DNA from: Eledone cirrhosa
Taxonomy: Eukaryota
DNA length: 64,000 bases
Reading direction: 5' to 3'
NCBI GenBank assembly: GCA_964016885.1
Contig: OZ024757.1
Location: 33,790,001 to 33,854,000, forward strand
Both the position numbers and the translations under genes were made by a program. The notes beneath the pieces were generated by a model. The model saw only the letters and a list, made by a program, of their open reading frames with translations, searched no databases and was not told where the DNA came from. Positions 5,251 to 35,657 of the stretch are shown here, one piece after another. Numbering within the stretch: position 1 is the first letter of the stretch; the number at the start of each line of letters is the position of its first letter.

Positions 5251-5586
5251 TTAGGCAAAAAGACATATTGTAGAGATAAGGAAAGTAAGCAAAAAGAAGA
5301 TGCACAATATGCGGTCAATAACCAAAGCAACCTGTTGCCACTCAGCATAGATTTCATGGCGTGCCTCCAAGACGGTTCCCCGAAGTGCGATTGATCGGAT
5401 GTGCTTCTTGATTTCGTCCATGTCTTTTTCAGGTTTCGGGGTGTCTGGGTTGTCTTGTGTTCGAACAATGACGTCAGCGTCGGTGGTTCGGTCGAGCCCA
5501 CGCATACTCACAGTCTCCTGCTCATCGAGGGGGTAGTACGCATCTCCTCCAAGACAGACCAAGCGTCGTAAACTGCGCAGGAATAT
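5251..5586 (-). CDS. nAChR-like terminal exon: intracellular loop, MA helix, M4, stop
   Basis: cccctccag acceptor; [17 protein letters not shown] matches the EWxxxAxVxDR M4 signature; TAA at 5251-5253. Confidence 0.93.
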
Positions 5587-8500
5587 CTGGAGGGGCAAAC
5601 ACAGAGATAGCTATGTAAACACATGGATAGATAGATAGGTAGATATATTTCTTTATTTGTCACAAGGGCGCACAAGAAAAGGGGACAATACAAAAACACA
5701 TGCTGGGGATTTTACATACAATCGTGTAAAAATAAGAAACAAACAAATATAACAATCGAAATCCCCAATAGGGGGGGAGGCGCCACAAATGGGTTGTTTA
5801 ATACCCCGTAGATAGAACAACCCTCAACTTCAGGAGTGTGTTGTGCAAGTGCTCCTTTCTTCCTTTTGCTCTCTTCTTCAACCTACAGGTTTATATACAG
5901 AGAAGGCCCAATCACTTGGGCCATTTTTTTCCACATTCACCCACCTTTCAGTAAATTTACTGGGGTGCAGTTCTTCTCTCTCCACTCTGATTCTCCTTCT
6001 AAAGTGATACTTAAAGATAGGTAGATAGATAGAGAGATAGATAAGTATGTAATATGGTGAGGATATCATCATCATCGTTTAATGTTTACTTTCCACGCTA
6101 GCATTTGAGGCCAGTTAAGTTGAGTGGCCGTGTCTCGCTCGTATAAGACTGTTTCTGGGTGATTTTCTATGGTTGGATGCTCTTCCTAACAACAAACCAC
6201 ATTTACAGTGTGTGATGGGTGCTTTTTGCCATGTCTCCTATTTGCCATGACCACTTTACACTGGGCTGAGTGCTTTTTGTTGTGTCACCTACACGACCAC
6301 TTTACAGTGTGTACTGGGTGCTTTTTGCTGTCACCTACATGACCACATTACAGTGTGGACTGAGTGTTTTTTGACGTGTCACCTACATGACCACATTACT
6401 GTGTGTATTGGGTGCTTTTTGCTGTCTCCTACATGACCACATTATAGTGTGGACTGAGTGTTTTTTGTCGTGTCACCTACATGACCACTTTACAGTGTGA
6501 GCTGGATGTTTTGTGATACCAACATAACTTTATAGAGTAAGGGTGATATATATATTTGAAAATATGTGAGATCCTTGGAACAGTTAGGTATATTTGAAAA
6601 AAGGAAAAGAATGACTTCACATGTAGTTGGTATTCTATAACAATTTAATTTTACAATTAACCCTTTAACATTTACATTACTCTATATTTACTATTGTATT
6701 TTCACAGAAAAGTCTTTATCTCACATAATATCTATTACTATTACACATGCTATAAAGTAGAGCTGATCCCAGAGTTACATAGTTGTGAAGTGAACTCCCC
6801 AGCTACACACCCATTCATGCAGCTGGATGAAATAACTTACCTGTCGCATTATCTCCGGCATTTTTCTTCTTCGTGGTCCTCTGTTGTAAATATTCAATAT
6901 AAATATCGAAAGAATCAGAGACAAAGCTATCCACAGCAGTGTAAGAATATGGTAAATTACTGAAACCAAAAAATAAATGATATTATTATTACAAGATGAG
7001 GGCGATGTCTTCTCCCTCTTTCTCTCACTCACACACACACACTCTCTCTCCAAACAAGTGACATTCCTTTTCTCTCTCTCTATTTATGTATTTCTCTTTC
7101 GTTTGGCACTCCCCTCTCACTTTATAGATGAGGATGAAGTCTTAACTTACTGCCACCTCGAAAATACACGGTGTTCTCTTTTCTCCCTCTATCTGTGTAC
7201 ATATCTCATGCTTGGCACTCTCCCTCTCTATATAAAGTGAGCGTGGTGGATGGATGGAAGGACAGACAGACAGACAGACAGACAGCGCTCTTCAGTAATG
7301 TACTGGGTAATTGCTGGCCTTGTGCCAAAAGTAGAAACAATTATTAATATTATAGAGTGTTTGGCAATATCAGTAGAACGTCAGACACCATGCTTTGTAG
7401 CATAGAGTTGCGGGCCTTTATGATCATGCTGAGGTTAACTTGGCCTTTCATATTTATGGGGTCGATAAAATAAAGTACCAGTCACTCACTGGGGTCGATT
7501 GAATCGACTTTCCCCTCCCCTTCAAATTGCTGGCCTTATGCTTAAAGTAGAAACAATTATTATTATTATTATTATTATTACTGGTACTTTATTTTATCGA
7601 CCCCCGTAAGGATGAAAGGCAAAGTTAACCTCGGCGGGATTTGAACTTAACATTCTGAGTTCAAATCCCGCCGAGGTTAACTTTGCTGGCCTTGTGCCTA
7701 ACATAGAAACACTTTAAATTTCTAGGTTCTCGGTTTAAATTCTGCTTCACCTTTCATCCTTACAGGATTGATAAAATAAAGTACCAGTAATGCACTGTGA
7801 TTGATTTAATCGATTTTTGCCTCCCCAAAAATTGTTGGCCTTGTGCCTAAATCAAACCATTATTTGTGGCATATAGTTACATTCCTTTATGTTCCTTATG
7901 AGACTTATGACTTGCAAGCGGCTGAGCGACCGTATCTGTAGCAGTGAACTGCTCAACATTACCAGACTTAGACCAATTACATCAATTGTCAAGTGAAGAG
8001 TACTCAGATTATATGGTCATATAAAAAGATCAACTTGTGGTGTGAGTAGGTTATATCTGGAAGGAAGGTTGGCTGGTAACAGAAGCAGAGGCCGGCAACC
8101 AAAATGATGGCTTGATGATGTCAACTTATTGACTGGACTTCATCTTTGCTCTTTAAACTCTGCCTTTGGTGATGGAACTTTGTGGAGAAAAACATCTCAT
8201 GTCGATGCGCAGTCTGCAACTGGCGGAGTTTAGCGTCAAAATAGTAGTAGTAAGAAGTATGTTCCTTATGGGAATGATAAAATGAAGTACCTGTAATGCA
8301 CTGGTGTCGATTTAATTAGCTTTCTGCTTCTCTTCAAATTGCTGGCCTTGTGCCATAAGTAGAAACAATTATTATTAGGGTGGTGGATTGGCAGTATCGG
8401 TAGAGCATCTGACGCCATGCTTTGCAGCATAAAGTTACGTCCCTTTACAATCTGAGTTCAAAGCCCGTCGAAGTTAACTTTGCCTTTCATCCTTACAGGG

Positions 8501-11500
8501 TCGATAAAATAAAGTACCAGTAATGTACTAGGTTAATTGCTGGCCTTGTACCAAAAGTAGCAACAATTATTATTAATCTTATTTTTATTGTGTAGCGTCA
8601 CTGCATTACCGAGCACAGCTCTGTGTGCCTTGGGTGTGTGCAGCAGTGGTTTTGGTGTTGTTTCTATTGTATTGATCACCACTACCACCACCACCGTCAC
8701 AACCATCACCACCACACCACCGTCACAACCATCACCACCACCACCGTCACAACCATCACCACCACACCACCGTCACAACCATCACCACCACACCACCGTC
8801 ACAACCATCACCACCACACCACCGTCACAACCATCACCACCACACCACCGTCACCACCACACCTCCGTCACAACCATCACCACCACCGTCACCACCACCA
8901 CCGTCACAACCATCACCACCACACCACCGTCACAACCATCACCACCACACCACCGTCACCACCATCACCACCACACCACCATCACAACCATCACCACCAC
9001 CACACCACTGTCACAACCATCACCACCACACCACCGTCACCACCATCACCACCACACCACCGTCACAACCATCACCACCACACCACCATCACAACCATCA
9101 CCACCACCACACCACCGTCACCACCATCACCAACATCACCACCACTACCATCACCAACACCACCACTACCATCACCATTACCACCACCACTGTTACAACC
9201 ATCACTACCACCACCACCGCCACCACTGTTACAACCATCACTACCACCACCACCACCACCAAACCCATCACCACCACCACCACCAAACCCACCACCACCA
9301 CCACCACCACCAAACCCATCACCACCACCACCACCACCACCACAGCCATCACATTGGTATTACTTACTAATAATCGGTATTTTATAATGGTGTCTCGGTA
9401 AAATGTCGTTGATAACATTAACTTGCAGTAAAGTTGTCATCATGAGGGCGACACCTGAGTAAGAGAAAGAGAGTGTTAGTGAAGGTGTGAGGGAGGGGGG
9501 GAGAGATAACAGTATAATTAGAGATAGACACATATATATATAAATATTTATATATATATATATATATATATAAATATTTATATTTATATATATATAAATA
9601 TTTATATTTATATATATATATATAAATATTTATATTTATATATATATATATATAAATATTTATATTTATATATATATAAATAAATATATATATATATAAA
9701 TATTTATATTTATATATATATATATAAATATATAAATATATATATATATAAATAAATATATATATATATAAATATTTATATTTATATATAAATATTTATA
9801 TTTATATATATATATATAAATATATAAATAAATATATATATATATAAATATTTATATTTATATATATATATATAAATATATAAATATATATATATAAATA
9901 TTTATATATATATATAAATATGTATATATATATATATATATGTGTGTATGTGTGTGTGCGTGTGTGAAGGCCCATGGCTTAGTGGTTAGAGCATTGGGCT
10001 TGCAATCGAAAGGTGAGTTCGATTCTCGGACCAAATGATGCGTTGTGTCCTGGAGCAAGACATTTTATTTCACGTTGTTCCAGTTTACTCAGCTGTAGAA
10101 ATGAGTTGCGACATCAATGGTGCCAAGCTGTATCGGCCATAGCCTTTCCCTTGGACATCATCAGTGGCATGGAGAGGAGAGACTGGTATGCATGGGTGAC
10201 TGTTGGTCTTCCTCAAACAACCTTGCCCAGACTTGTGCGTCAGAGGGAAACTTTCTAGGTGCAAATCCCATGGTCATTCGTGACCGAAGAGAGTCTTTGA
10301 GATATATATACAGTATATATACAGAGTGTACTAAAAAATGTGTGCACACTTTGATTACCTGTATAGGTAATATTTATTTAAAATGCAATTGAAGTGTGTA
10401 TACATTTTTGGGACACCCTGTATTTGCACACACACACGTACACACATATATATCATCATCACCATTTTACGTCCGCTTTTCCCTGCTTGCGAGGGTGGGA
10501 CGGGAACTGATTCTGGCTTGATTTCTACAGCTGGATGCCCTTCATAACACCAACCTCATTTACAGTGAGTGCTGGGTGCTTTTTTTACCGTGGCACCTCC
10601 ACGACCACTTTGCAGTGGAATGATAGAGACCCCAGTCCTATCATCTCATTTCTACAGCTGAGTAAACTGGAGCAATGTGAAATAAAGTGTCTTGCTCAAG
10701 GAAACAACACATCACCCGGTCTGGGTCTGAGAATTGAACTCAGAACCTTTCGGTTACAAGGCCAATGTTCTAACCACTAAACCATGTGCCTCCATATATA
10801 TACATATATACATAAATAGATAGATAATAACTAACAAATAGTTCCATTGTTCTACATGGCTGAATAGAAGAAATGTAAACCTGAGTTTTTCAAATAATAA
10901 TAATATTCGATTCGTTTGCAATTATGCAAACAGCCTCTAAACCATGTGAGTTGAACAACTTCATCATTCTTTCCCTTGTGTTGGCATAAGACATGGCAGA
11001 CACTAATGTTTCTGGTTGATTACCCATCAGTACTGTATACTGTTTACCTGCCAACTGTCAGAGCTAGTGAAACTATATGATTATTTCTGGAATATACAGT
11101 GACTGATCGGCCTGATTTGCATATTAGCTGAAACATTACTGTCTGCCATTCTGTTTATATGCCAACACAAGAGCAAGAATGATGGAGTCATTCTACTCAC
11201 ATGGCTTAGGAGGCTGTTTGCATAATTGCAAACGAATCGAATATTATTATTAATATTCGGAAAACTCAGATTTACATTTCTTGTATTCAGTCTTGTAGAG
11301 CAATAAAACTATATATCTATCTATTTACAATAGATAGATAACTATAGAATTGAAATAGAAATGGAAGCTTCACTGTAATATTTTTGACTGAATAATATAT
11401 TCTAATAATGGGATGTATAAACCCACTGAATGGAAGAAGGTGAGTCTTTTTTTTAATGTCCACTGATATATACATACCTAATGTTATACGCTCTTTAGAA

Positions 11501-13142
11501 TCTGGAGGTAACAAAAAGAGAAATGGGACCAGTGCACCGATAAGCATGGCAGGGAATATGAGCACATGACTGAAATAGTTTGAGTTCCGGCGTAAAACAA
11601 ATTTCACCCAGTAATTTGGGTAGGGTTCCGCACAACAGGCATAGTTGTTAATGGTCACCTGTGAGACAAAGAATAACACAGTGTTATTATTATGTATAAG
11701 GCGGTGGATTGGCAGTATCGGTAGAGGGTCGGATGCCATGCTTTCCAACATAGTTACATCCCTTTACGATCTGAGTTCAAATCCCGCTGAGGTTAACTTT
11801 GCCTTTCATCCCTACGGGGTCGATAAAATAGAGTACCAGTAATGCACTGAGATAATTGCTGGCCTTGTGCCAAAAGTAAAAACAATTACTATTTGGGATA
11901 TACTGTTACAGCGGGGTTATAATAAAGTACCAGTAACACACTGGGGTCGATTTAATTGACTTTCTCCTTCCCCCAAAATTGTTGGCCTTTTGCCTAAATC
12001 AGAAAGCCTTATTTGTAGCATATAGCTACATCCCTTTATATTCTCATTTTAAATCCTGCTGAGGTTAGCTTTGCCTTTCATCCTTACGAGATCAATAAAA
12101 TAGAGTACCAGTAATGCACTGGGGTCAATTAGATCGACTTTCCCCTTCCACAAAAATTGTTAGTTTTGGGCCTAAATTAGAAGCCCTTATTTGTAGCATA
12201 TAATTACGTCTCTTTATATTCTGAGTTCAATTAATGTACCAGTAATGTACTGGAGTCGATTTAACCCTTTAGTATTTAAACCGGTCATAACCGGCCAGAA
12301 TTCTCTCACCTCTTTCTGTTTGTTTAAACCAGCCATAAATGGCTGCTCATACTGATGTTAAGGTATTGTTCCCAAAATAAATATCAAAATCTCGTAGATT
12401 CGATATTACAATAGTAACTATATTTACTATACAATAGTAAATATAGAGTAATGTAATGTAAACGATTTTCTCCTCCCCCAAAATTGTTGGCCTTAGGCTT
12501 TAATCAGAAACCCATATTATTAGGGTTTGGTTGTTAATGGCATCATGTTAAGTAGGATCAAAGTAAAGACATGACTACAAGGGTTGTATAACATTAGGGA
12601 CCAATACAATGATGAAAAACAACAGCCCAACACACATTAGGGGATTGAGCAGATCAATTATTATTAGGGTTCTTGTGGGGGGGGGGGTCGATTGATAGAG
12701 CACTGGACAAAATGCTTTGTGTTATTCAGTTACAAAATTCTATGTTTTGCTTTCAAATCTCACTGAGGTTGGTCTTACTTTTCATCCTTACAAGATCAAC
12801 AAATCTGGCCCATTGAATTACATTTAGGGTCCATTTGACAGGCTTCCAAGCAGTTTGTCTACCCAATTTCACTCACAAGGCATGGGCCAACCCGAGGCTA
12901 TGATAAATGATAATAATTGTTTCTAATTTAGGCTCAAGGCCAGCAATTTGAAGGGGAGGGGAAAGTCGTTTAAATCAATCCCCAGTGCATTACTGGTACT
13001 TTATTTTATTGACCCCGTAAAGATGAAAGGCTAAGCTAACCTCGGTGAGATTTGAACTCAGAACGTAATAAGCCAAATAAATATTGCCAAGCACTTGAAC
13101 AACACTCTACCGATTCTGCCAATCCACATACATACAACAGAT

Positions 13143-13181
<39 letters not shown>

Positions 13182-13641
13182 ACACAAAGCACACACAATA
13201 TTCTGCCTGGTGTTCTGTACAATCCACCACTGCAATAAATATAAATCAGAAATACAAATCAGTATCTGTGACAAGAGCAGGAAGAGTTGTCTTTCCTTTA
13301 CTTACTCCACTTGAGGTGTCGATGAGTTCCCACTTGCTGTTAGCTATGTAGTCGGCGGTGAGAAGTGAGTTAAAGTGGGAGGAGATGTTCACCTCTAGAC
13401 CATTGTACACCATAGAGCCATACATCAGCTTGCATATTTGTGTGTCAAACGGGAATTTCGCCAAGTCAACTGCGCACACTGCCATCTCCACCAGCCGGTG
13501 CACGTAATATACACTGCCAGAATTTAGCACAAGGACATCGTGATGTGCCATTGATGGAACATCATGGTCAACGCTGGAAATTACAAGAGTAAAAGTAGTA
13601 AGCAGCTAATAATGTCATTATTGATGGATTGATGGAAATGT

Positions 13642-13677
<36 letters not shown>

Positions 13678-15194
13678 GTAATATGTATGATGGCTTTACT
13701 GTAGCACCGGCTCAGAGCAGGAGAGTTGAGGCGAAAAAGATATCGAATGCTGAATTTGGTGACAAATACAGTGAAGGAGGCAGAGGATTTGATGCAGGAG
13801 GTTGAGACTGTGTCGATGAGTGTGGGGCTGAGAATGAATGAGACTAAAACAAAATATCTGGTAGAGAATGTTGAGAAGCCAGAGGGGATTACTAATGTAG
13901 GCGGGAAGCCGCTAGAATTGGTTAAGGACTTCCTGTATTTGGGAGCAAAGATTGGGAATACGGAAGATGATGTGGTTGAGAGGAAGAGCAAAGCCTGGGC
14001 GGCGTGCCACAGCTTGAGATCGGTGTGGAAGTCGGACCTTCATAAAGACCTGAAAATCCGCCTCTTCATTGCTGTAGTGGAGTCTGTGTTGCTGTACGGG
14101 TCTGAGACTTGGACACTGACCAAGAAACGCACTCAGATGGTGGATGGGTGCTACACGAGAATGTTGAGGATGGCTCTCTAAACATTAATCAGTATACACT
14201 GAGGATGAAAAACTCAGAGCTGTATGGGAGCCTCCCAAAAGTCAGCTCAAAAGTGACACAGAGGAGACTGAGGTTAGCTGGACATGCTCACCAACATCCA
14301 GAGTTGACATTGCACTCAGTGCTCCTGTGGGAGCCCCTGCCTGGACACACTGGAAGAGGAAGACCAAGGTTAACGTATGTTGGTGCCCTAAGGACAGCCA
14401 CTGGTCTGTTGGAGACGCAGGACATGGCAGCGATAATGAGGGACAGAGACCGCTGAAAAACTGAGCTGATGATCCGTTTGAGGTGAAACAAATTGTGTAT
14501 TGTGTCGGAAATGGTGTATTAACTGTTGTGGAACTACTTTTACCAAACTCAGCCCATGGCCTGGGACTGAGTGCTCTACTACTGCAGATATGACCCACCA
14601 GTGTTCTACCACTATATATATATATATATAGTGGTAGAACACTGGTGGGTCATATCTGCAGTAGTAAAGCACTCAGTCCCAGTCCATATGTATATAGGAA
14701 AAGAGTCAGGACCCCGATGGCTGAGCTCCAGCCGTTTCGACAGGGGTCCTGACTCTTTTCCTATTACCCACTCTACTACCCTAAGTATTGAGTACTCTGG
14801 TGTGTTCACCTGGTATCTTACCATACCCTCTTTGTTATATACATATATATATGTGTGTGCATGTAAAATTACAGTGAGAGAATAAACAGCCAAAATTCTT
14901 TTAAAAATATTTTTTCAAGAATTTTGGTTGTTTATGCTCTCACTATAATTTTTTATATTTATGCTCTGCCTATATACTTGTTGCATGGCTTATATTTCTC
15001 TTGCTTGCTTTCACTGCACGCTTGTCTTGTTATATTATATGTATTATTATTATGTATGTTATATTATATGCATATTATATGTATTGAGCACACTGTCCTC
15101 TTCGCTACTGATTTATAATTCTCTGAAACTAATCTCTAATCTCTTGGTTGGATTGTACACTTACATATGATATATATATACATATATATATACA

Positions 15195-15230
<36 letters not shown>

Positions 15231-15580
15231 TATATATATGGAGGCACATGGCTTAGTGGTTAGAGCATTGGCCTTGCAATCAAAGGGTTGTGAGTTCAAT
15301 TCTCAGACCAGGTGATGTGTTGTTTCCTTGAGCGAGACACTTTATTTCACATTGCTCCAGTTTACTCAGCTGTAGAAATGAGATGATAGGGACTGGGGTC
15401 CCCATCACTCCACTACAAAGTGGTCGTGGAGGTGCCACGGCAAAAAAGCACCCAGCACTCACTGTAAATGAGGTTGGTGTTAGGAAGGGCATCCAGCTGT
15501 AGAAATCAAGCCAGAATCAGTTCCCGTCCCACCCTTGCAAGTAGGGAAAAAGCGGATGTAAAAATGAAATGATGATGATG

Positions 15581-15611
<31 letters not shown>

Positions 15612-16577
15612 CACAAATATATATATATAAAAGAAAACTAGAACTGAATTTTAACTTACTAATTGTAAAGAACTATATCAGGATACCAAACATTTTGGAC
15701 TGGCATACGTATTTGAGCAAGATTGTTGTAATCACTGGGTTTCCACTGGAGTCTTGCATCATCCCAGGTTTTCGTGAGATATCCATGGATTCTAAACTTC
15801 ATGTTATGTTCATCCTATTTTAAAAGATAGAAGAAAAATGAATGAATCATCATCATCATCATCATCATCAAGGTTTAGCGTCCGTGTTCCACGCTTGCAT
15901 GGGTTTGGACGGGGGTTTTCCCACTTGAGGCAAGAGTATATATATATATACAATGTAAATGACAATCAAAGAGTGTTTAAAACATTTAATCACTTACGAT
16001 TGTTTCATCCTAGCACAAGGCCGGAATCATCAGAGTTGATAACAAAGGTCAAACACAAATATAATATCAGAACTTTGTCACAAGAACATTAGGAGATACA
16101 TAATATGGGAGGCTAGATAAGCATAAGCATCAACATCTATATAAGCTAACATTGTACTTTGGCTCCTCTGTAGTATGCTTGTTATTTTACATTGAGCTAT
16201 TTTCATACTTGTAACTAGATAATATTTATTATTACCCACATTATATATATATTTATATAGCTGCAATTATATGAATATATATATAATGGAACCTCGGTTC
16301 ATGGACGCCTCTCATCACGAACAAATCAGTTCACGAACAATTTTTCCGAACATAAAATGTCTCGGTTGACAAAAGGTGTCTTAAGTAACAAACACACAAT
16401 CTAACAACAACGGTTGGCAACAAGCTGGGAGTATTGGTGGGAAAGTGGCTCTTGTTGAGTAGTTAGTTACTGTGCTGATATCTATCTGTCTTTTACACAC
16501 AGTCTCTCTCTTTCACTGTTTCTCTCTCAACAGTTCAGGTGACGAACAACCTTCAAGAACGAATTAAGTCCATAAAT

Positions 16578-16613
<36 letters not shown>

Positions 16614-18863
16614 GTATCATCATCATCATTTAATGTCCATTTTTCCATGCTAGCATGGGTTAATGGGTTAGATGAGTTGTCTTATTGTGAGATGACCCAG
16701 ATCAGATGACCACGTCTTGCTCATACAAAACTGTTTCTGACTTGGTTTCTACAGCTGGATGCCCTTCCTAGCACCAACCACATTTCAGGGTGCTTTTTGT
16801 GGTGACACCTAGATGACCACTGATGGGTTTGGGCTTGATCTACATCAGCATCTCATATGGGAAGTGGGAATTGGCGGTGCAGAGGTTTTTGTTGCCATCT
16901 ATCTCTAAATGTTTTTAGACCTTCTATCTTTGACTTGCTTCTGTGGATTCTTGCTGCTTTAGTTGGAATTAGGTCAGCTTCATTATTTAGGTCTACATCT
17001 TCAGTTTCTTGTTCTTTCCTGTACTTTCGTGCCTCTTTGAGTACTGACTGGAGTTTCTTTTGGTTTTTGTGCTTTCTTAATAACCCCATCATCGAGTCAG
17101 TAGTGCTCTCTTGGAACCTTTCTTATATACATATATATATCATCACCATTTAGCATCTATTCTTCTGTGCTTGAATGGGTTATTCCACGCTGGGAGGCAA
17201 GTCTGGCCAGGGTTGGCCACTTCGCACCTTACTCCAGCGAGGACTGTAAATTTGGCCGGGTATCTTGCAGCTGGATGCACTTCATAAAACGAACCACATT
17301 TACAGTGTGGAACTTGATGGCTCTCTTATGAGGAGAGACAAGCCAGTTGGTTGCACCAAACCCATCTCACAATGGAACCATAGTTTTGGAGCCCGACCCA
17401 ACTCACACCATAACATAGTTTTGGAGCCCGACCCAACTCACACCATAACATAGTTTTGGAGCACGACCCAACTCACACCATAACATAGTTTTGGAGCATG
17501 ACTCAACTCGCACCATAACATAGTTTTGGAGCACGACCCAACTCACACCATAACATAGTTTTGGAGCACGACCCAACTCACACCATAACATAGTTTTGGA
17601 GCACGACCCAACTCACACCATAACATAGTTTTGGAGCACGACCCAACTCCCACCATAACATAGTTTTGGAGCACGACCCAACTCACACCATAACATAGTT
17701 TTGGAGCACGACCCAACTCCCACCATAACATAGTTTTGGAGCACGACCCAACTCACACCATAACATAGTTTTGGAGCCCGACTCAACTCACACCATAACA
17801 TAGTTTTGGAGCCCGACCCAACTCCCACCATAACATAGTTTTGGAGCCCGACTCAACTCACACCATAACATAGTTTTGGAGCCCGACTCAACTCACACCA
17901 TAACATAGTTTTGGAGCACGACCCAACTCACACCATAACATAGTTTTGGAGCCCGACTCAACTCACACCATAACATAGTTTTGGAGCCCGACTCAACTCG
18001 CACCATAACATAGTTTTGGAGCCCAACCCAACTCGCACCATAACATAGTTTTGGAGCACGACCCAACTCACACCATAACATAGTTTTGGAGCCCAACCCA
18101 ACTCGCACCATAACATAGTTTTGGAGCACGACCCAACTCACACCATAACATAGTTTTGGAGCCCAACCCAACTCGCACCATAACATAGTTTTGGAGCACG
18201 ACTCAACTCACACCATAACATAGTTTTGGAGCCCGACCCAACTCACACCATAACATAGTTTTGGAGCCCGACCCAACTCGCACCATAACATAGTTTTGGA
18301 GCACGACCCAACTCACACCATAACATAGTTTTGGAGCACGACCCAACTCACACCATCACATAGTTTTGGAGCACGACCCAACTCACAGCGTAACCATAGT
18401 TTAGGAGCCTGGTACTAGATGGCACCGATATAAGCAGCCTGACTCCTTTCACAGCGTAGCAACAGTTTTGGAGACTGGTACTGGATTAGGAGGGACAGGT
18501 GCAGGGCCACAGTTTGGGAGCCTGGCATTGGATGGCACCACTCTGCGGAAAATCCTTGTTACAGTAAGACATATTTGTTACAGTAAGACATAGTTCACTA
18601 GTGGTTGGTGTTCTTGAATAAATCAGGTGAGTGACAGTGATAAGGAGAAAGAAAAGAAAAAATGTGAAGAGAGAGTGCGAGAGGAGAAGGAATGAGAGTT
18701 TACTTGCTTACCAGATCTACCGTGTGTGGAGAGAACTGCACATTAATGAGAACTGGTCCATTCACTGATGGTCTGATATGGGGGTTGTAGTTATTGAGAA
18801 GATCGTCATAGAGACGGCTTTCTGTTAAAATGCCTGTTAAATTTAGTTTGTCACCTGGCTGTT
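5251..18863 (-). CDS. Spliced gene (7 exons recovered, signal-peptide exon missing): divergent alpha-type nicotinic acetylcholine receptor-like Cys-loop ligand-gated cation channel subunit
   Basis: Exons 18712-18863, 15660-15814, 13306-13573, 11478-11658, 9368-9454, 6841-6959 and 5251-5586 have AG/GT borders and compatible phases (0,2,0,1,1,0). They join into one stop-free frame with [37 protein letters not shown], the Cys-loop [15 protein letters not shown], loop [10 protein letters not shown], four TM helices and [11 protein letters not shown] before M4. Confidence 0.93.
6841..6959 (-). CDS. nAChR-like exon: M3 and MX start ([40 protein letters not shown])
   Basis: tttcag acceptor, gtaagt donor, 119 nt; LN-x-x-x-R-x-P...MP motif after M3. 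Confidence 0.92.
7890..8250 (+). mobile_element. Degenerate RTE LINE 3' fragment
   Basis: Remnant reading ..LRLYGHIKR...[21 protein letters not shown], typical of the RTE ORF C-terminus. Confidence 0.6.
8677..9350. repeat. CAC/CAT-rich compound minisatellite next to the M2 exon donor
   Basis: Unit ~caccaccgtcacaaccatcaccacca repeated, grading into (CAC)n. Confidence 0.9.
9368..9454 (-). CDS. nAChR-like exon: M2 and M2-M3 loop ([29 protein letters not shown])
   Basis: ctcttactcag acceptor, gtaagt donor, 87 nt, phase 1-1. This matches the size of the M2 exon of alpha7-type genes as I recall it; the two M2-M3 loop prolines are conserved. Not in the ORF track in this frame. Confidence 0.9.
9965..10300 (+). 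mobile_element. tRNA-head SINE
   Basis: A box tggcttagtggttaga, B box gagttcgattctc, then the gagcaagaca...tttcacgttg core seen in many copies (related copies at 35660-35930 and 42236-42530). Confidence 0.8.
10319..10423. mobile_element. Tc1/mariner-like mini MITE
   Basis: TA-flanked imperfect TIRs cagagtgtactaaaaaatgtgtgcacactt / aagtgtgtatacatttttgggacaccctg. Confidence 0.55.
10450..10794 (-). mobile_element. tRNA-head SINE with RTE-like 3' tail
   Basis: Reverse copy of the family at 15240-15582 and 62140-62482. Confidence 0.85.
10838..11311. mobile_element. Fold-back MITE with ~200-bp imperfect terminal inverted repeats
   Basis: aataatattcgattcgtttgcaattatgcaaacagcct (left) is the reverse complement of aggctgtttgcataattgcaaacgaatcgaatattatt (right); pairing extends over most of the element. 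Confidence 0.85.
11478..11658 (-). CDS. nAChR-like exon: loop C (YACCAEPY), pre-M1, M1, M1-M2 linker ([10 protein letters not shown])
   Basis: tctcacag acceptor, gtatgt donor, 181 nt; vicinal Cys pair, LRR pre-M1; overlaps ORF 11317..11751. Confidence 0.95.
11700..11890 (+). mobile_element. Second tRNA-head SINE family with (ATT)n tail
   Basis: ggcggtggattggcagtatcggtagag...gagttcaaatccc...aattgctggccttgtgccaaaagta; further copies near 2900, 7360-7860, 8378, 12917(-), 38012(-), 44826, 57245(-), 61428(-). Confidence 0.8.
13306..13573 (-). CDS. nAChR-like exon: loop E, Cys-loop, loop B, loop F
   Basis: tttccag acceptor, gtaagt donor, 268 nt; C-x13-C loop with FPFD; overlaps ORF 13246..13551. 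Confidence 0.95.
13685..14610 (+). mobile_element. 5'-truncated, frameshifted RTE-clade LINE, antisense in an intron
   Basis: ORFs 13726..14181 and 14109..14456: [48 protein letters not shown]. Confidence 0.88.
14697..14832 (+). mobile_element. Penelope-like pseudo-LTR fragment with inverted 5' part
   Basis: ggaaaagagtcaggacccc...ggggtcctgactcttttcc hairpin plus the tattacccactctactacc tail shared with 50041-50230 and 50569-50770; flanked by (TA)n. Confidence 0.6.
15240..15582 (+). mobile_element. tRNA-head SINE with RTE-like 3' tail and (GAT)n end
   Basis: ggaggcacatggcttagtggttagag...gttaggaagggcatccagctgtagaaa...gatgatgat; copies at 20820-21143(-), 28140-28461(-), 53868-54220, 62140-62482. 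Confidence 0.88.
15660..15814 (-). CDS. nAChR-like exon: loops 2/D and A ([51 protein letters not shown])
   Basis: aaatag acceptor, gtaagt donor, 155 nt; W-x-D-x-R-L-x-W and W-x-P-D-I-V-L-Y-N motifs. Confidence 0.93.
15988..16040 (-). ncRNA. Minimal type I hammerhead ribozyme motif (Penelope-type)
   Basis: Minus strand reads AUCAACU-CUGAUGA-U-UCCGGC-CUUGU-GCUAGGA-U-GAA-AC-AAUC-GU-A-AGUGAU: both core boxes, stems I-III and a GUA cleavage triplet. Confidence 0.65.
16850..17120 (-). mobile_element. Non-LTR retrotransposon fragment (R4/Dong-like)
   Basis: ORF 16853..17092 ends in [10 protein letters not shown], resembling the W-x-x-K-x-L-H-G-Q-F/Y motif of RLE-type LINEs. Confidence 0.45.
17379..18393. 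repeat. 35-bp minisatellite, 29 copies
   Basis: Unit catagttttggagc(a/c)cgac(c/t)caactc(a/g/c)caccataa; tagttttgga recurs with exact 35-nt period from 17381 to 18361. Confidence 0.97.
18712..18863 (-). CDS. nAChR-like exon: N-terminal helix and beta1 ([50 protein letters not shown])
   Basis: ttttataacag acceptor and gtaagc donor; matches the E-x-R-L-x-x-D-L-L-x-x-Y-N-x-x-x-R-P nAChR start. Several nearby AGs make the exact 5' edge uncertain. Confidence 0.88.
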
Positions 18864-18950
18864 CTGTTATAAAAGATATAAAATAGAAAAATATTTTACA
18901 GATAGGATAGAAAATACATGTTTGTGTTCATAGATATATTTCTATAATGC

Positions 18951-18984
<34 letters not shown>

Positions 18985-18994
18985 ATATATATAT

Positions 18995-19442
18995 AAGGAC
19001 GATTGTATATAGCCTGTGTGCAAAGTGCGATGCGGCATGGTAGTGAAACATGGGTCGTGACTGCAGAGGACAGGCATAGACTGGAGAGAAATGAAGCAAC
19101 CATGCTTCGTTGGATGTGCAATGTAAGTGCAAGAGAGAGAAAGGCAGAGCTTGGATGAGTTGAAAGAGAAGCTGGGTTTAAGAGGAAATCGAGGTAGTGT
19201 GCAGGAGAGAAGACTGCATTGGGTGAAGAAATGCCAGGGAATGCCAGTGGAAGGAAGCTGCAATAGAGGTAGACCAAGAAAGACACAGGCAGATGTTGTG
19301 AGACCTGATCTCAAATCACTGTGACTCACAGAGGCGATGATAAAGGATTGTGACGTGTGGAGAAATGTCATGCTAAGAAGGACCTGTCCAACCCATGCAA
19401 GCATGGCAAAGCAGACATAAAAATGATGATGTTGATGATGAT
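18995..19442 (+). mobile_element. RTE LINE 3' fragment
   Basis: GRLYIACVQSAMRHGSETW...GRPRKT; ends acccatgcaagcatgg...(GAT)n. Confidence 0.8.
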
Positions 19443-19702
19443 AAGTGCTTGTATGTGTGTATTAATGTGTTCAAATACCGCCAAGGTTGACTTTGCCTTT
19501 CATCCTTATGGGGTCAATAAAATAAAATACCAGTAATGCACTGAGGTAATTGCTGGCCTTGTGCCAAAAGTAGAAACAATTAATTTATTACTCAACTGAA
19601 ACTTAGTATTTAGGCACCAAGAAATGTAAGCCACAGAACTAGAATTAAATCTATCATATACAAATGTAATTATATATATATATCTGTGTGTATGTATATA
19701 TA

Positions 19703-19767
<65 letters not shown>

Positions 19768-19895
19768 ATATATATACACACACACATGTATGTGTATATA
19801 TGTATGTATGTATATCTATGTATGTGTATATATATATATATACACACAGGTATATATATATGTGTATATATATATATGCACACACACACACACAC

Positions 19896-19933
<38 letters not shown>

Positions 19934-20232
19934 ATGTGTGTATGTATGTATACATACACATACATGTATGTGTGTGTGTAACTTGCATATATCATTATTT
20001 ATTAATATTGTTATAAATGTTTTTTATTTGTTTTATCATCTTTATTGTTGTCTTCATTGATTAATGGAAGACCAGTTAAGTGTTGAGACATGAAGTCTTC
20101 TGAGATTTTGGTGGATACTAAATCGATTGCTTATTAGTCTTTTTGTTTCATTTGTAAAACACAACATGCACGCAGGGATATTTTGGGGCGCTATATTGGC
20201 ATACAGCGTTTCTAGGGCATTTTTTTAACCTC

Positions 20233-20535
20233 TTAACCCTTTAGCATTTACATTACTTTATATATACTATTATGTTTTCATGGTAAAGGCTTTACCTCAT
20301 GTAATTATCTCACATAATATGGAATCTATGAGATTTTGATATTATTTATTTTGATAAACTAAAGTACCAGTAATACACTGGGTAATTGCTGGCCTTGTGC
20401 CAAAAGTAGAAACAATTATTTATTTTGAGAACAATACCTTAAAGTTGGTATGAGGGACCAGTTGTAGCCGGTTTGAACAGAAAGAGTTGAGATAATTCTG
20501 GCCGGCTACGACCGGTTTAAATGCTAAAGGGTTAA
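20233..20535. mobile_element. piggyBac-like TTAA MITE family
   Basis: ttaa-ccctttagcattta...taaatgctaaaggg-ttaa TIRs; other copies at 12262, 26631, 32590, 37098-37315, 41305-41810, 42008-42235, 57938. Confidence 0.8.
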
Positions 20536-21167
20536 ATACGATGGACAAGATAACTTAACATGTTTGAACTCTTTTCCAACAGTTCATAACTTCAAAGCTA
20601 GATGGGGTTACTAGTTTATTAATGTGACATTTGTCAATCATTCAGATATGTGTTATTATTAATAACACATATCTGAATGATACCAACACCACACCACCAC
20701 CACTCCACCACACCACCACCACTCCACTACAACACTCCACCACACCAACATCACCCTACTACAAAACTACACCCCTATGTATATATATATATACATGTGT
20801 ATATATATATATTTTTCTATTTTTACGTCCAATTTTCCCTGCTTGCAAGGGTGGGACGGGAACTGATTCTGGCTTGATTTCTACAGCTGGATGCCCTTCC
20901 TAACACCAACCTCATTTACAGTGAGTGCTGGGTGCTTTTTTTGACGTGGCACCTCCACAAGCACTTTGCAGTGGAATGATAGGGACCCCAGTCCTATCAT
21001 CTCATTTCTACAGCTGAGTAAACTGGAGCAATGTGAAATAAAGTGTCTTGCTCAAGGAAACAACACATCACCCGGTCTGTGAATTGAACTCACAACCTTT
21101 CGATTGCAAGGCCAATGCTCTAACCACTAAGCCATGTGCCTCCATATATATATATATATCATCATCA

Positions 21168-23178
21168 TCATCAACGTTTAACGTCCGTGTTCCACGCTTG
21201 CATGGGTTTGGACGGGGGTATTCCCACTTGAGGCAAGAGTGATTGTCTTGCTCGCATAGGACTGTCTGGCAGGTTTTCTACAGTTGGATGCCCTTCCTAA
21301 CACCAACCACATTTACAGTGTGGGACTGGGAGGTTTTTACCGTGTTGCCTACACGGCCACATTACAGCGTGGACTGTGTTTTTTTTGTCGTGACACCTAC
21401 ACGATCTCATTTGTTTCGGCCTGGATGTTGTGGCACCAACATAACTTTACATAGGAGGGGGTGCTGTGGATGGGGGTGTGGGTGGTGGGACGGGGGTGTA
21501 TTTTGTTAGAGATGCCTACTGGCTGTAGTAGGTTTTACTATGTATTTAGGTAAGGCGGGTCTTCTCTATTACTGAGTACCGCCAAAGGTCTCGGTCCAGT
21601 GACATTGTCTTGGAGAGGTGTAAGTGTGTGAGGTCGGAGTTTATCAGCTCATCCCAGGATTTTCTAGGTCTGCCTATTCCGTGGCTACCGTCTATCTTTA
21701 TTGCCCTGCACTTTGTTATACAGCTATCGACTTTCATGCGCATCACGTGTCTGTACCAACGTAGCCTTCTCTCGAGTAAACATCTGATCCCTCTTATTTC
21801 TAATTTTTTCCTTAGTTCGTTTATGCTTTGCCGTTCACGTATATTACTATTACACATCCAGCGGAGCATGCAAGCTTCGTTCCTCTCTAGTCTGCGTATA
21901 TCCTCTGCGCACAATGCCCAGGTCTCACTGCCATGCAACATTGCTGTTCGTATGCAGGCATCATACAACCTGCCTTTCATTTTTAGGGAGAACCCTTTAG
22001 CGGCTAATAGTGGTATAAGCTCTCTGAACTTTTTCCATCCAGTTCTGACTCTAGCTACTGTACTTTCGGAGCACCCTCCCCCACTGCTGATTTTGTCACC
22101 CAGGTAACAGAAGCTGTCCACTATTTCTATAGAGCCCTCTGCGCAATTGAAAGAGTTAGTATTTTGTGGGCACTCGCTGCTACTTATTGCACCAGAGCAC
22201 CGCCCACATGTAAAATCAAAGTTCTTAGTTAGCTTACCTGTGATCCCACTATATCTTTTATGCACCCATACTTTGCATTTGGGACATAAAATGGAGTTTC
22301 TACCTACGCCTTTCCTACACACTGAGCATGGCCATTTCCCGGAAGGGACCGCCGCCTTATTTTCTTTCCTACAAACTAGAACTTTAGTCTTAGCCAGGTT
22401 AATTTTAAGGCCTTTTGATTCTAGGCCGTGCTTCCATGTTTGGAATTTCTTCTCTAGCTCGGCCATTGATTCAGCTATGAGTGTCAGGTCGTCTGCGTAT
22501 AGGAGTTCCCATGGGCAGCCGGTCTTGAACTCCTCTGTTATAGCCTGAAGGGCAATAATAAATAGTAGGGGGCTGAGAACAGAGCCCTGATAGACGCCAA
22601 CTTTTACGCTAAACTCTTCACTATATTCGTTGTTAATTCTAACCTTGCTGACTGTTTCTTTATACATGGCTTGTATAGCTCTCACAAGCCATTCGTCGAC
22701 ACCTAGTTTTCTAAGGGCCCACCAGATAATGGAACGGGGGACTCTGTCGAAGGCTTTCTCCAAGTCGACAAAAGCTAAGTAGAGGGGTTTACCTTTAGCT
22801 AGGTACTTCTCCTGTAGTTGACGTACAATGAAAAGAGCGTCTGTGGTACTTTTGCCTGACACAAACCCGAACTTCATTTCATCTAGGTCAATTCTCTCTC
22901 TGATTAGTTGCGCTATTACTTTTTCCGTGACCTTCATGACCTGGTCGATTAGTTTAATGCCTCTATAGTTACTCCTATCTAGGGCATCTCCTTTACCCTT
23001 ATAACAGTTAACGATGATGCTGCTATGCCAGTCCTTCGGAACAACCCCATTCTGTACGACTTGGTTAACTATCCGGGTGACCAAGGTGTGTCCCACCGAG
23101 CCAGATGCCTTCAGCATCTCAGCAACTATTTCCGAAGGCCCAGCCGCCTTACCCGTCTTCATATCCTTGATTGCCTAT
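21168..23178 (-). mobile_element. 5'-truncated RTE-clade LINE with long open RT frame
   Basis: ORF 21546..23162 (538 aa): KAAGPS, NYRGIKL, FVDLEKAFD, GVYQGSVLSP, LLYADD, FCYLG, Cys-rich PHD-like insert; 3' UTR and (GAT)n tail at ~21170. Confidence 0.95.
21546..23162 (-). CDS. RTE retrotransposon reverse transcriptase, partial (no endonuclease domain)
   Basis: YADD catalytic motif and RT domains; the frame starts at the truncation point. Confidence 0.85.
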   Translation of the reverse strand: MKTGKAAGPSEIVAEMLKASGSVGHTLVTRIVNQVVQNGVVPKDWHSSIIVNCYKGKGDALDRSNYRGIKLIDQVMKVTEKVIAQLIRERIDLDEMKFGFVSGKSTTDALFIVRQLQEKYLAKGKPLYLAFVDLEKAFDRVPRSIIWWALRKLGVDEWLVRAIQAMYKETVSKVRINNEYSEEFSVKVGVYQGSVLSPLLFIIALQAITEEFKTGCPWELLYADDLTLIAESMAELEKKFQTWKHGLESKGLKINLAKTKVLVCRKENKAAVPSGKWPCSVCRKGVGRNSILCPKCKVWVHKRYSGITGKLTKNFDFTCGRCSGAISSSECPQNTNSFNCAEGSIEIVDSFCYLGDKISSGGGCSESTVARVRTGWKKFRELIPLLAAKGFSLKMKGRLYDACIRTAMLHGSETWALCAEDIRRLERNEACMLRWMCNSNIRERQSINELRKKLEIRGIRCLLERRLRWYRHVMRMKVDSCITKCRAIKIDGSHGIGRPRKSWDELINSDLTHLHLSKTMSLDRDLWRYSVIEKTRLT

Positions 23179-23214
23179 ATATACATATACATATACATAT
23201 ACATACATGTGTAT

Positions 23215-25682
23215 ATATATATCATGGACAGCATCTACATACATTGAGTATTAACACACAAGTACGTCAATACTTATCTTTTTCCATGTCTTAGAGGGTT
23301 CTAAACCCCACTATCAGGCTAAAATTTCTTTAGTAAAAAAAATATGGCGAAACCTTTTATTTCTAATTATATTAAATACAAAGCGAAACCTACAGTTAGT
23401 AGGCACCACTTAACCAAAATACACCCCCGTCCCACTACCCCTACCACCATCTACACCACCCATTTCGATATAAAGCTATGTTGGTACCACAACATCCAGT
23501 CCTAAATAAATGAGGTCGTGTAGGTGTCACGACAAAAAAACACACACTCCACGCTGTAATGTGGCCATGTAGGTAATACGGTAAAAACCTCCCAGTCCCA
23601 CACTGTAAACGTGGTTGGTGTTAGGAAGGGCATCCAGCCGTAGAAAACCCGCCAGACAGTCCTGAGCAAGACAACCAATCTTGCCTCAAGTGGGACAATT
23701 CCCGTCCAGACCCATGCTAGCATGGAATATGGACGTTAAACGATGATGATGATATATATATATATATAACAAATATCATCCGCACCCTGTATATATATAC
23801 ATACATACATATATATATACATACACACACACATATATATATATACACACACACACACATATATATATACACACACATATATATATATATATACACACAT
23901 ACATATATATATATAGGCAAGAGAGAGAGGTGGGGTGGCAGGGAGAGATTCTGGGTGTTGTAAAGTGATATGCCTCCAGTTAAACTAAAGAACCTCTGGG
24001 GATGTTAATGAAGACATAAACACAATTTAAAGTAACATCATGAGATGGTAGAAGTGGGTATTGACTTGGTGGGGTGGGGTGGAGGGTAGGGGTGGGTGGA
24101 GGGGAGTATTGACTGGGTGGAGGGGTGGAGGAGTGTATGGATGGGTGGAAGAGAGTATTGACTGGCTGGTGGGGTGGAGGAGAGTAAGGATGGGTGGAGG
24201 GGTGGAGGTGGATACGGGTGGGTGGTGGAGGAGGATATGGGTGGGTGGTGGAGGGGTGGAGCAGAGTAAGGATGGTTGAAGGGGTGGAGGAGACTATGGA
24301 TGGGTTAAGGAGGATATGGATGGCTTAATGAGGATATGGATGGGTAAGGAGGGTGGAGAGAGTGGACAGTTATTTTTTCCTTTATAATGTGATTTAGAGA
24401 GAATATTTAATTTTCAAAAAAACTTTTGATTTTTTCAATACACAGACAGACAGACAGAAACACACACTCACATACACTTATATATGTAAAATTAACCAAC
24501 TGTGATTGCGACTAAAAGCAGCCAAAATGGTATAACGTTAGTTGATAAAGTGTGTAACTCGGAGATCAGAGAGTCACTCCAGGTAGAGCTGCTACTTCTC
24601 CAAATTGTGAGATCACAGCTCCGATACTATGGACATGTGGTTAGAATGTCTCAGGAAAGAATATGTAGCTCAGAGATCAGAGAGTCACTCCAGGTAGAGC
24701 TGCTACTTCTCCGAATTGAGAGATCACAGCTCTGATACTATGGACATGTGGTTAGAATGTCTCAGGAAAGAATCACTGGACAGATTTTACAGGCGAAACC
24801 AACCAGTATCAGATCTCTCAATTCGGAGAAGTAGCAGCTCTACCTGGAGTGACTCTCTGATCTCTGAGCTACATATTCTTTCCTGAGACATTCTAACCAC
24901 ATGCCCATAGTATCGGAGCTGTGATCTCTCAATTCGGAGAAGTAGCAGCTCTACCTGGAGTGACTCTCTGATCTCCGAGTTACACACTTTATCAACTAAC
25001 GTTATACCATTTTGGCTGCTTTTAGTCGCGATCACAGTTGGTTAATTTTACATATATATGTGTATGTGAGTGTGTGTTTCTGTCTGTCTGTCTGTGTATT
25101 GAAAAAATCAAAAGTTTTTTTGAAAATTAAATCTTCTCTCTAAATCACATTATAAAGGAAAAAATAACTGTCCACTCTCTCCACCCTCCTTACCCATCCA
25201 TATCCTCATTAAGCCATCCATATCCTCCTTAACCCATCCATAGTCTCCTCCACCCCTTCAACCATCCTTACTCTGCTCCACCCCTCCTCCACCACCCACC
25301 CATATCCTCCTCCACCACCCACCCGTATCCACCTCCACCCCTCCACCCATCCATACTCTCCTCCACCCCACCAGCCAGTCAATACTCTCTTCCACCCATC
25401 CATACACTCCTCCACCCCTCCACCCAGTCAATACTCCCCTCCACCCACCCCTACCCCCCACCCCACCCCACCAAGTCAATACCCACTTCTACCATCTCAT
25501 GATGTTACTTTAAATTGTGTTTATGTCTTCATTAACATCCCCAGAGGTTCTTTAGTTTAACTGGAGGCATATCACTTTACAACACCCAGAATCTCTCCCT
25601 GCCACCCCACCTCTCTCTCTTGCATATATATATGTATGTGTGTATATATATGTATGTGTGTATATATATATATATGTGTGTG

Positions 25683-25777
<95 letters not shown>

Positions 25778-27267: not shown

Positions 27268-27313
27268 CTGGCAGTCCATCTCCTCTCCAGGTGTGAATAC
27301 AGTAGATTTCTTC
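27268..27313 (-). CDS. Candidate 46-nt bridging exon (RKKSTVFTPGEEMDCQ)
   Basis: Long pyrimidine tract plus aag acceptor; phase 2 to 0 would link the 59537 exon to the alternative AG at 18859-18860. The donor (gttttt) is weak. Confidence 0.2.
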
Positions 27314-28459: not shown

Positions 28460-28507
<48 letters not shown>

Positions 28508-28582
28508 GTGTATATATATATCATGGACAGCATCTACATCATCATCATCATCATCATTTCATCATGATCATGAATGAATGAT

Positions 28583-31500: not shown

Positions 31501-31734
31501 GTGTTTATGTCTTCATTAACATCCCCAGAGGTTCTTTAGTTTAACTGGAGGCATATCACTTTACAACACCCAGAATCTCTCCCTGCCACCCCACCTCTCT
31601 CTCTTGCATATATATATGTATGTGTGTATATGTATATATATGTATGTGTGTATATATATGTGTGTGTATATATACATATGTATGTGTGTATATATATGTG
31701 TGTGTATATATACATATGTATGTGTGTATATATA

Positions 31735-31777
<43 letters not shown>

Positions 31778-35589: not shown

Positions 35590-35657
<68 letters not shown>

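What the first reader, a model, noticed from the sequence alone, without database searches (positions are those of the whole stretch)
5251..18863. Intact alpha-type nicotinic receptor subunit whose acetylcholine pocket has been rebuilt
Seen: the frame is intact and keeps the Cys-loop, loop A Tyr, loop C YACCAEPY, the loop-2 Glu and the pre-M1 Arg. Loop B reads [10 protein letters not shown], with Met (ATG, 13411-13413) at the Trp149 position and Met at Lys145. Loop C ends PYPN (Asp200->Asn). Loop D has GYL instead of xWL, and loop E has YYVHRL instead of WxPP. Established: Trp149 makes the main cation-pi contact with ACh, and K145/Y190/D200 couple binding to gating. Inference: this is a functional channel subunit for a different ligand (another amine, a chemosensory cue, protons or metal) or a modulatory subunit. 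It would be a repurposed nAChR distinct from cephalopod chemotactile receptors.
Basis: partly seen in the sequence, partly recalled or inferred. Interest (0 to 1): 0.75.

Follow-up and report, generated by a model that had tools for sequence, protein, structure and literature searches.

The report
Octopod receptor with disabled acetylcholine site
This intact, spliced octopus-lineage gene encodes a relative of the nicotinic acetylcholine receptor whose binding site is changed on both faces at residues that acetylcholine needs, so it likely forms a cation channel opened by some other, still unidentified molecule.

Summary
Seven GT-AG exons give one open frame, and one public contig joins three of them without their introns. 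A likely signal-peptide exon lies just outside the window.

Met replaces Trp149 here and in the Octopus and Argonauta orthologues, but in none of 176 other relatives' domains. The rebuilt loop B is the longest invariant stretch of their extracellular domains.

It puts Arg at Pro121, the substitution used to switch off an acetylcholine site in muscle receptors. Arg121 appears older than Met149. In Alpo4, the best solved-structure match, residue 121 contacts Trp149. The losses of Lys145 and Asp200 are common and say little.

The gene is not a chemotactile receptor, DopC or AChRB. It belongs to an orphan lophotrochozoan lineage that holds Alpo4-like proteins and has several independent loop B changes. 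Gating and cation-filter residues are kept.

Best reading: a cation channel subunit gated by something other than acetylcholine (0.5). Rivals: accessory subunit (0.3), low-affinity cholinergic subunit (0.15). Ligand, tissue and dN/dS are untested. Verdict: a new variant of a known kind.

The parts
18864..64000 (-). Likely intron 1 (about 45.8 kb, runs past the window's end). The candidate signal-peptide exon 1 lies outside the window at L072:733-649 (G000:C18:33854733-33854649)
   Evidence: 57% identity over 28 aa to the O. bimaculoides signal peptide, E 0.003; in phase with exon 2, canonical donor; the only one of 7 filter-passing candidates that matches the orthologues' signal peptides. Homology only
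18712..18863 (-). Exon 2: N-terminal helix, beta1
   Evidence: 66% to P0001
15660..15814 (-). Exon 3: loop 2 Glu45, loop D (Tyr at Trp55), loop A with Tyr93
   Evidence: PF02931; on contig record 1 of run X1
13306..13573 (-). Exon 4: loop E, Cys-loop, loop B, loop F
   Evidence: PF02931; on contig record 1 of run X1
13495..13497 (-). Arg codon (CGG) at the Pro121 position of loop E, complementary face
   Evidence: ungapped alignment to human epsilon 108-146; coordinate
13411..13413 (-). Met codon (ATG) at the Trp149 position of loop B, principal face
11478..11658 (-). Exon 5: loop C with Tyr190, vicinal cysteines, Tyr198, Asn200; pre-M1 Arg; M1; M1-M2 linker with -1' Glu
   Evidence: on contig record 1 of run X1
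9368..9454 (-). Exon 6: pore helix M2 and M2-M3 linker (87 bp)
   Evidence: found by splice scan; 66% to Argonauta P0002, E 8e-8
6841..6959 (-). Exon 7: M3 and start of the intracellular loop
5251..5586 (-). Exon 8: unusually conserved intracellular domain, M4, stop
   Evidence: (83% to P0002, 81% to P0004)

Best explanation
This is an intact, spliced octopod Cys-loop receptor subunit of an orphan lineage that holds Alpo4-like proteins, with Met at Trp149 and Arg at Pro121, which likely cannot be opened by acetylcholine as a homomer and likely forms a cation channel gated by a different small molecule. Shown: the gene, the residues, their conservation and the lineage. From published mutagenesis of muscle receptors: each change cripples acetylcholine action. 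Inferred order of events: Arg121 came first, in a cephalopod ancestor, and would have occupied Trp149 from the neighbouring subunit, as His131 does in apo Alpo4; Trp149, no longer free to bind a quaternary ammonium, was then replaced by Met in the octopod line, and the new loop B was held fixed. Inferred working: the pocket keeps four tyrosines and the loop C disulphide but loses the indole and gains a positive charge behind it, which would favour a neutral, hydrophobic or zwitterionic ligand over acetylcholine; binding would be passed to M2 by the intact Cys-loop, Glu45 and Arg209, and the -1' Glu predicts cation flow. The identity of the ligand is a guess.
For: Intact frame and spliced contig. 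Met149 in 4 of 4 octopod orthologues examined and in 0 of 176 domains from 147 other relatives, where Trp holds 155 of 176. The 14-residue loop B stretch is the longest invariant run among three octopod lineages whose extracellular domains are 59% invariant (119 of 202); shuffle P 0.003 for a run through position 149, 0.038 for any run. O. bimaculoides and O. vulgaris extracellular domains are 99% identical over 178 aa. Arg aligns to epsilon Pro121; P121R cuts the ACh coupling constant from about 5,700 to about 12 (PMC6445574, passage) and gamma P121R lowers gating 44-fold with 80% surface expression (PMC10187723, abstract); W149A costs about 30-fold affinity (PMC4621750, passage). Alpo4 is the best PDB sequence match of the Argonauta orthologue (E 3.6e-61); its His131 is the same column (chain 163 and 191 = paper 131 and 159), contacts Trp159 in the apo state, and no agonist was found among more than 30 compounds (PMC10338036, passages). 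Extracellular domain diverges faster than the intracellular one (45% versus 79% to P0004; 31-32% versus 55-58% to bivalves), the reverse of a canonical control.
Against: No current, ligand or tissue was measured. First-shell pocket residues are not significantly more conserved than the rest of the domain (11 of 14, Fisher P 0.10), and the shuffle test ignores that loop B is conserved for structural reasons in all nAChRs. The mutant effects come from vertebrate muscle receptors. Tyr93, Tyr190, Tyr198 and the cysteines are kept, so weak cholinergic gating with a normal partner is possible. The matching Arg131 of the glycine receptor lies about 8 A from the agonist (PMC5377815, passage), so Arg121 need not touch a ligand. 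The O. bimaculoides and O. vulgaris database models are fused or cut short, so a whole gene is seen only here and in Argonauta. The strongly conserved intracellular domain fits an accessory role equally well.
Confidence: 0.5

Rival explanations
1. Accessory or modulatory subunit: it binds no agonist, takes a non-binding place in a heteropentamer (as vertebrate alpha5 or beta3 do; recalled), and tunes trafficking, kinetics or permeability through its pore helix and conserved intracellular domain.
For: Both faces carry site-disabling changes. The intracellular domain and M4 are the most conserved parts (81% and 93% to Argonauta). Several octopus subunits give no current as homomers (DopC2, AChRB2, AChRB3; 10.1101/2025.04.02.646353). 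Tandem Trp-bearing paralogues exist in Octopus and Argonauta.
Against: The derived loop B and loop D stretches are invariant across three lineages and the loop C tyrosines and cysteines are kept. In this genome no paralogue was found with five queries, so the obvious partner is missing here.
Confidence: 0.3
2. Low-affinity cholinergic subunit: as the principal face opposite a partner with normal Trp55 and Pro121, it still responds to high ACh or choline.
For: Tyr93, Tyr190, Tyr198 and the vicinal cysteines are kept; W149A costs only about 30-fold; a backbone carbonyl at 149 remains (established knowledge).
Against: Lys145 and Asp200 are also gone, Trp to Met needs two base changes, and Alpo4 does not respond to ACh even with its Trp.
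Confidence: 0.15
3. Decaying gene under relaxed selection.
For: Extracellular identity to orthologues is only 61-72%; 9' is Met and 16' is Asn in M2; two database models are broken.
Against: No stop or frameshift in 460 codons, canonical splice sites, a spliced contig, 78-93% identity in membrane and intracellular parts, 99% between two Octopus species.
Confidence: 0.05

Closest known systems
Alpo4 of Alvinella pompejana (PDB 8BX5 and related; PMC10338036, passages)
   Same: Best PDB sequence match of the Argonauta orthologue, aligned end to end including the intracellular domain; Lys-Glu-Arg in the M1-M2 linker; non-Pro at 121; orphan. Alpo4-like rows fall in the same lineage (96/98).
   Different: Alpo4 keeps loop B and loop D Trp and lacks the vicinal cysteines; this protein has Met and Tyr there and keeps the cysteines. 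Alpo4 itself was not in my trees.
Vertebrate alpha7 and muscle nAChR alpha subunits
   Same: Fold, Cys-loop, vicinal cysteines, three principal tyrosines, gating residues, -1' Glu.
   Different: Met149, Arg121, Tyr55, no Lys145 or Asp200; about 30% identity.
Cephalopod chemotactile receptors CRT1 and CRB1 (PDB 8EIS, 9E6B, 8EIZ)
   Same: nAChR-derived and without loop B Trp (0 of 14 CR frames from this genome keep it).
   Different: CRs are intronless, clustered on C11 and lack the vicinal cysteines; this gene has at least six introns, lies on C18, and grouping it with the CRs is rejected.
AChRB acetylcholine-gated anion channels (10.1101/2025.04.02.646353)
   Same: Share a phase-1 intron at the M2 4' codon (3 of 3 PAK-type loci; 0 of 17 other loci where the motif was found); sister group in two trees.
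   Different: No PAK motif, -1' Glu kept; AChRB keeps Trp149; sister relation unresolved in the mixture-model tree.
DopC dopamine-gated cation channels (10.1101/2025.04.02.646353; 10.1101/2025.10.31.685654)
   Same: nAChR-like cation channel with vicinal cysteines and a non-ACh ligand: the precedent for what it may work like.
   Different: DopC keeps loop B Trp and needs an Asp after it; here Met and Asn.
Octopod orthologues XP_052831251.1 (N-terminal half), CAI9738548.1, GAB1606926.1; Aplysia relative NP_001267752.1
   Same: Orthologues share Met149, Arg121, Tyr55; the Aplysia protein has Tyr at 149.
   Different: Only automatic names; no paper in the library names six of the octopod accessions.

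Membership tests
nAChR-like Cys-loop receptor | Cys-x13-Cys loop, PF02931 and PF02932 domains, four helices | tested here: met
   exons 3 and 4 pass PF02931; exon 8 scores 28.0 against a cut-off of 28.1 for PF02932; the whole orthologue P0002 passes both; model and fold search are of P0002
ACh-binding alpha subunit | Vicinal cysteines and Tyr93, Tyr190, Tyr198 | tested here: met
ACh-binding alpha subunit | Loop B Trp149 | tested here: not met
   Met
ACh-binding alpha subunit | Lys145 and Asp200 | tested here: not met
   Met and Asn; weakly diagnostic, kept in 92 and 86 of 176
Homomeric nAChR (alpha7 type) | Complementary Trp55 and Pro121 | tested here: not met
   Tyr and Arg
ACh-binding alpha subunit | ACh-evoked current | not testable with these tools
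   needs electrophysiology
Chemotactile receptor (CR) | Intronless gene in the tandem CR cluster | tested here: not met
   six introns within the finding, C18; CR cluster on C11
Chemotactile receptor (CR) | Groups with the CR clade | tested here: not met
   CR monophyletic without it; Met-type rows plus CRs rejected, p-AU 0.013. The wider lineage as CR sister is neither rejected (p-AU 0.47 and 0.92) nor shown
Chemotactile receptor (CR) | Expression in sucker epithelium | not testable with these tools
   library of run X1 not on record
DopC | Loop B Trp followed by the conserved Asp | tested here: not met
   Met149, Asn152; DopC1 itself was not identified in my trees
AChRB anion channels | PAK motif before M2 | tested here: not met
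   Lys-Glu-Arg
AChRB anion channels | Sister-group relation of the wider lineage | tested here: inconclusive
   89/91, SH-aLRT 99, open, CR side at 86/86 with long-branch warning; shared intron
Orphan lophotrochozoan lineage with Alpo4-like proteins | One clade with mollusc, brachiopod and annelid rows; conserved intracellular motif | tested here: met
   15 rows at 96/98, of which 9 mollusc-type rows at 100/99; names; best PDB hit

The most novel reading that the evidence does not exclude
A third, independent exit from acetylcholine in cephalopods, apart from chemotactile receptors and DopC: an octopod channel for an undescribed transmitter or chemical cue, reached in two steps through a self-liganded intermediate (Arg121 capturing Trp149, then Trp149 to Met), whose living intermediates (Arg121 with Trp149) survive in tandem paralogues and in another cephalopod, so the path can be retraced residue by residue and may deorphanise the Alpo4 lineage.
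Probability: 0.3. Interest if true: 0.75.

Novelty: new variant of a known kind. Interest (0 to 1): 0.5.

Why it matters
Cephalopod Cys-loop receptors have already yielded touch-taste receptors and a dopamine-gated channel. This gene marks another branch that has probably left acetylcholine, in a lineage from annelids to octopuses whose one solved member has no known agonist. It gives a natural series (Pro/Trp, Arg/Trp, Arg/Met at 121/149) for testing how a binding site is switched off and rebuilt, and it carries as its normal state a substitution that causes disease in the human gamma subunit.

Tried and rejected
No RNA holder listed: the four runs that hold exon 8 have no kind on record. The candidate exon 1 stretch (L072:600-830) had no cover in run X1, so its link to exon 2 rests on homology and phase; the first 964 letters of the X1 contig were not placed. 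A signal-peptide scan inside the window gave no match to the orthologues' signal peptides. Chemotactile receptor, DopC, AChRB member and pseudogene readings were tested and dropped (see membership tests). 'Sister of the CRs' appeared at 86/86 in the first tree with long-branch warnings and vanished with the mixture model and denser sampling. A carboxylate-binding role for Arg121 was weakened. Restoration of Trp by RNA editing is impossible from ATG; Asn200 could be edited to Asp, but no difference was seen in the contig. dN/dS could not be computed: no orthologous DNA was available. The fold search shows only the nAChR fold. No complex was predicted, as a nAChR-like oligomer would pass by likeness. 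Papers not held: Kang 2023, Allard 2023, van Giesen 2020, Albertin 2015 and an Aplysia cloning paper, ids from reference lists or recall. Supplements not seen: MolluscaGenes reference table and the list of 41 O. vulgaris channels tested by Courtney et al. (bioRxiv); either may already name or have tested an orthologue. Earlier-findings look-ups gave nothing on this gene.
Full report
Observation. The window is G000:C18:33790001-33854000 of a 3.0 Gb genome; nearest named relatives are from Octopus and Argonauta, so it is an octopod (inference). Seven minus-strand exons with AG acceptors and GT donors give one frame of 431 codons and a stop. The 87-bp M2 exon was found by a splice scan and matches the Argonauta orthologue at 66%. 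A candidate signal-peptide exon lies 45.8 kb upstream, just outside the window, and completes a 460-residue protein; it rests on homology and phase only (see Tried and rejected). One 2,153-letter contig of run X1 carries exons 3, 4 and 5 at consecutive record positions (965-1120, 1121-1390, 1391-1571) with no differing letters (table 8), which is what a spliced transcript gives; the remaining three exons would end at 2,111. The four runs are at most two samples of one study, their kind is not on record, and the tissue is unknown.

Orthologues. O. bimaculoides (N-terminal half of a fused model), O. vulgaris (cut short before loop C) and Argonauta (whole) group with this gene at 100/97 and share Met149, His120-Arg121 and Tyr55. 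P0004, an unnamed record 79% identical in the intracellular domain, has Arg121 with Trp149; I take it for a cuttlefish on recall of its cluster member's accession series, not from a call. Octopus and Argonauta have tandem paralogues with Trp149, and Arg121 in 3 of the 4 Octopus domains seen (P0005 and P0019 counted once) plus the Argonauta one. Five queries found no paralogue in this genome, nor did 30 kb below and 40 kb above the window; these searches score only the best candidates. The simplest history is Arg121 in a cephalopod ancestor, then Met149 once in the octopod line. Branching among the cephalopod copies is unresolved.

How unusual. Of the 150 best hits in the 50% library, 147 were new; they gave 176 domains, with Trp at 149 in 155 and Met in none, Pro at 121 in 106 and Arg in 5, Lys145 in 92, Asp200 in 86, Trp55 in 121. 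The sample leans to fused multi-domain models and to this lineage. Within this genome, 20 of 22 non-CR fragments keep Trp149 and 0 of 14 CR frames do. So Met149 and Arg121 are the informative changes; the losses of Lys145 and Asp200 are not.

Selection. dN/dS could not be run. Over three lineages 119 of 202 extracellular columns are invariant; the longest invariant run is the 14-residue rebuilt loop B, followed by 9 residues of loop D. Shuffles give P 0.003 for such a run through position 149 and 0.038 for any run, but they ignore the structural conservation of loop B. First-shell residues are invariant in 11 of 14 (P 0.10). Identity rises from the extracellular domain to the intracellular domain and M4 (61, 81, 93% to Argonauta); a canonical control pair is 79% in its loop E to M2-M3 exon and aligns only in short 39-41% pieces further on, these from a sister locus.

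Placement. In trees of 34 to 115 rows (rows dropped for length, redundancy or long branches are listed in the scripts) the gene sits in a cephalopod clade (99-100 support), inside a mollusc clade with Aplysia, Patella, Pinctada and Mytilus, inside a lineage with Lingula, Owenia and Alpo4-like rows (96/98; names). Alpo4 is the best PDB match of the Argonauta orthologue and aligns through the intracellular domain, but could not be put in the trees. Grouping the Met-type rows with the CRs is rejected (p-AU 0.013); the whole lineage as CR sister is not rejected (0.47, 0.92) and not shown. A tie to AChRB has support in two trees and from an intron at the M2 4' codon seen in 3 of 3 PAK-type loci and 0 of 17 other loci where the motif was found (3 more loci not matched), but is open in the mixture tree. 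It may be 'PSG unknown 4 or 5' of 10.1101/2025.06.15.659772 (passages), which I could not check.

Mechanism. Shown: Arg aligns without gaps to human epsilon Pro121. From papers: P121R is used to disable an ACh site and cuts coupling from about 5,700 to about 12 (PMC6445574, passages; PMC4621750, passages); gamma P121R lowers gating 44-fold with 80% surface expression (PMC10187723, abstract); W149A costs about 30-fold. In apo Alpo4, Trp159 flips onto His131 (PMC10338036, passages), and His131 is the column of our Arg (arithmetic). Inferred: Arg121 would capture Trp149 across the interface, freeing Trp149 from its ACh role and allowing the two-base change to Met. The pocket keeps Tyr55, 93, 190, 198 and the loop C cysteines; the Cys-loop, Glu45, Arg209 and the -1' Glu are kept, M2 has Met at 9' and Asn at 16'. 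I commit to a cation channel gated by a non-quaternary-ammonium ligand (0.5), with an accessory subunit (0.3) and a low-affinity cholinergic subunit (0.15) as rivals. The glycine receptor's matching Arg131 lies about 8 A from the agonist (PMC5377815, passages; that it is the matching residue is my recall plus the GABA-A pi alignment), so Arg121 does not by itself point to an acid ligand.

What is known. nAChR-like genes with altered sites are a described kind: CRs (PMC11526382, passages), DopC and AChRB (10.1101/2025.04.02.646353, abstract, sections 6 and 15, part of 38 and passages; 10.1101/2025.10.31.685654, passages), Alpo4, only 13 of 33 oyster alpha subunits with complete principal sites (PMC6896357, passages), and divergent clades in MolluscaGenes (PMC13174522, section 3.4 and passages). 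10.1101/2025.10.28.685082 (passages) and PMC3874043 (one passage) added nothing on this gene. Ten searches of the library showed no description of this subunit in their listings, and six octopod accessions appear in no main text. The key CR papers were not held and two supplements could not be seen; an orthologue may be among the 41 channels that Courtney et al. tested.

Verdict. A real, conserved gene and a well-grounded prediction that it is not an ACh-gated homomer; a new variant of a known kind, with the ligand open. Interest 0.5.

Noticed in passing
G000:C11:23.62-23.92 Mb (L034, L035, L040-L048, L057-L062, L068, L069) and C23:18.65 Mb (L063): Tandem array of intronless chemotactile receptor genes: 24 matches listed in this 0.3 Mb stretch, one with a stop inside the match; L035 matches CRT1 at E 1e-146. 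One more CR lies alone on C23.
   Followed up: partly
L065 (G000:C3:213.76 Mb) and L064 (G000:C11:41.97 Mb): Two more nAChR-like genes without loop B Trp (Glu in L065). L065 has a split cysteine pair in loop C and falls, on a long branch, in the same wider lineage as the finding.
   Followed up: partly
P0001, P0005, P0009, P0010, P0013, P0046, P0047, P0067: Octopus species carry a tandem cluster of Trp-bearing paralogues and Argonauta at least one, next to the Met gene by accession order and contig length; none was found in this genome. The RefSeq model XP_052831251.1 fuses two neighbours.
   Followed up: partly
window:5251-6959: The intracellular loop, usually the most variable part of nAChRs, is more conserved than the ligand-binding domain in this lineage (79% versus 45% to P0004); it may bind a conserved partner.
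   Followed up: partly
window:28581-32420: A 3.9 kb stretch in intron 1 matches its own reverse complement at 94%, and about 1 kb units recur in both orientations between 23200 and 32800.
   Followed up: no
window:21546-23174: LINE-type reverse transcriptase frame of 542 codons in intron 1 (PF00078); further LINE-like pieces at about 13705-14456, 19000-19430, 46444-47170 and 55399-55958.
   Followed up: no
window:17379-18408: 35-bp minisatellite, 29 copies, 94% matches, in the intron between exons 2 and 3.
   Followed up: no
P0065 (NP_001267752.1), P0078, P0062: Other members of the lineage replaced loop B Trp independently: Tyr in Aplysia, Leu in Elysia, Phe in an unnamed record; Pinctada and Mytilus members keep Trp but lost the vicinal cysteines and Tyr93.
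   Followed up: partly
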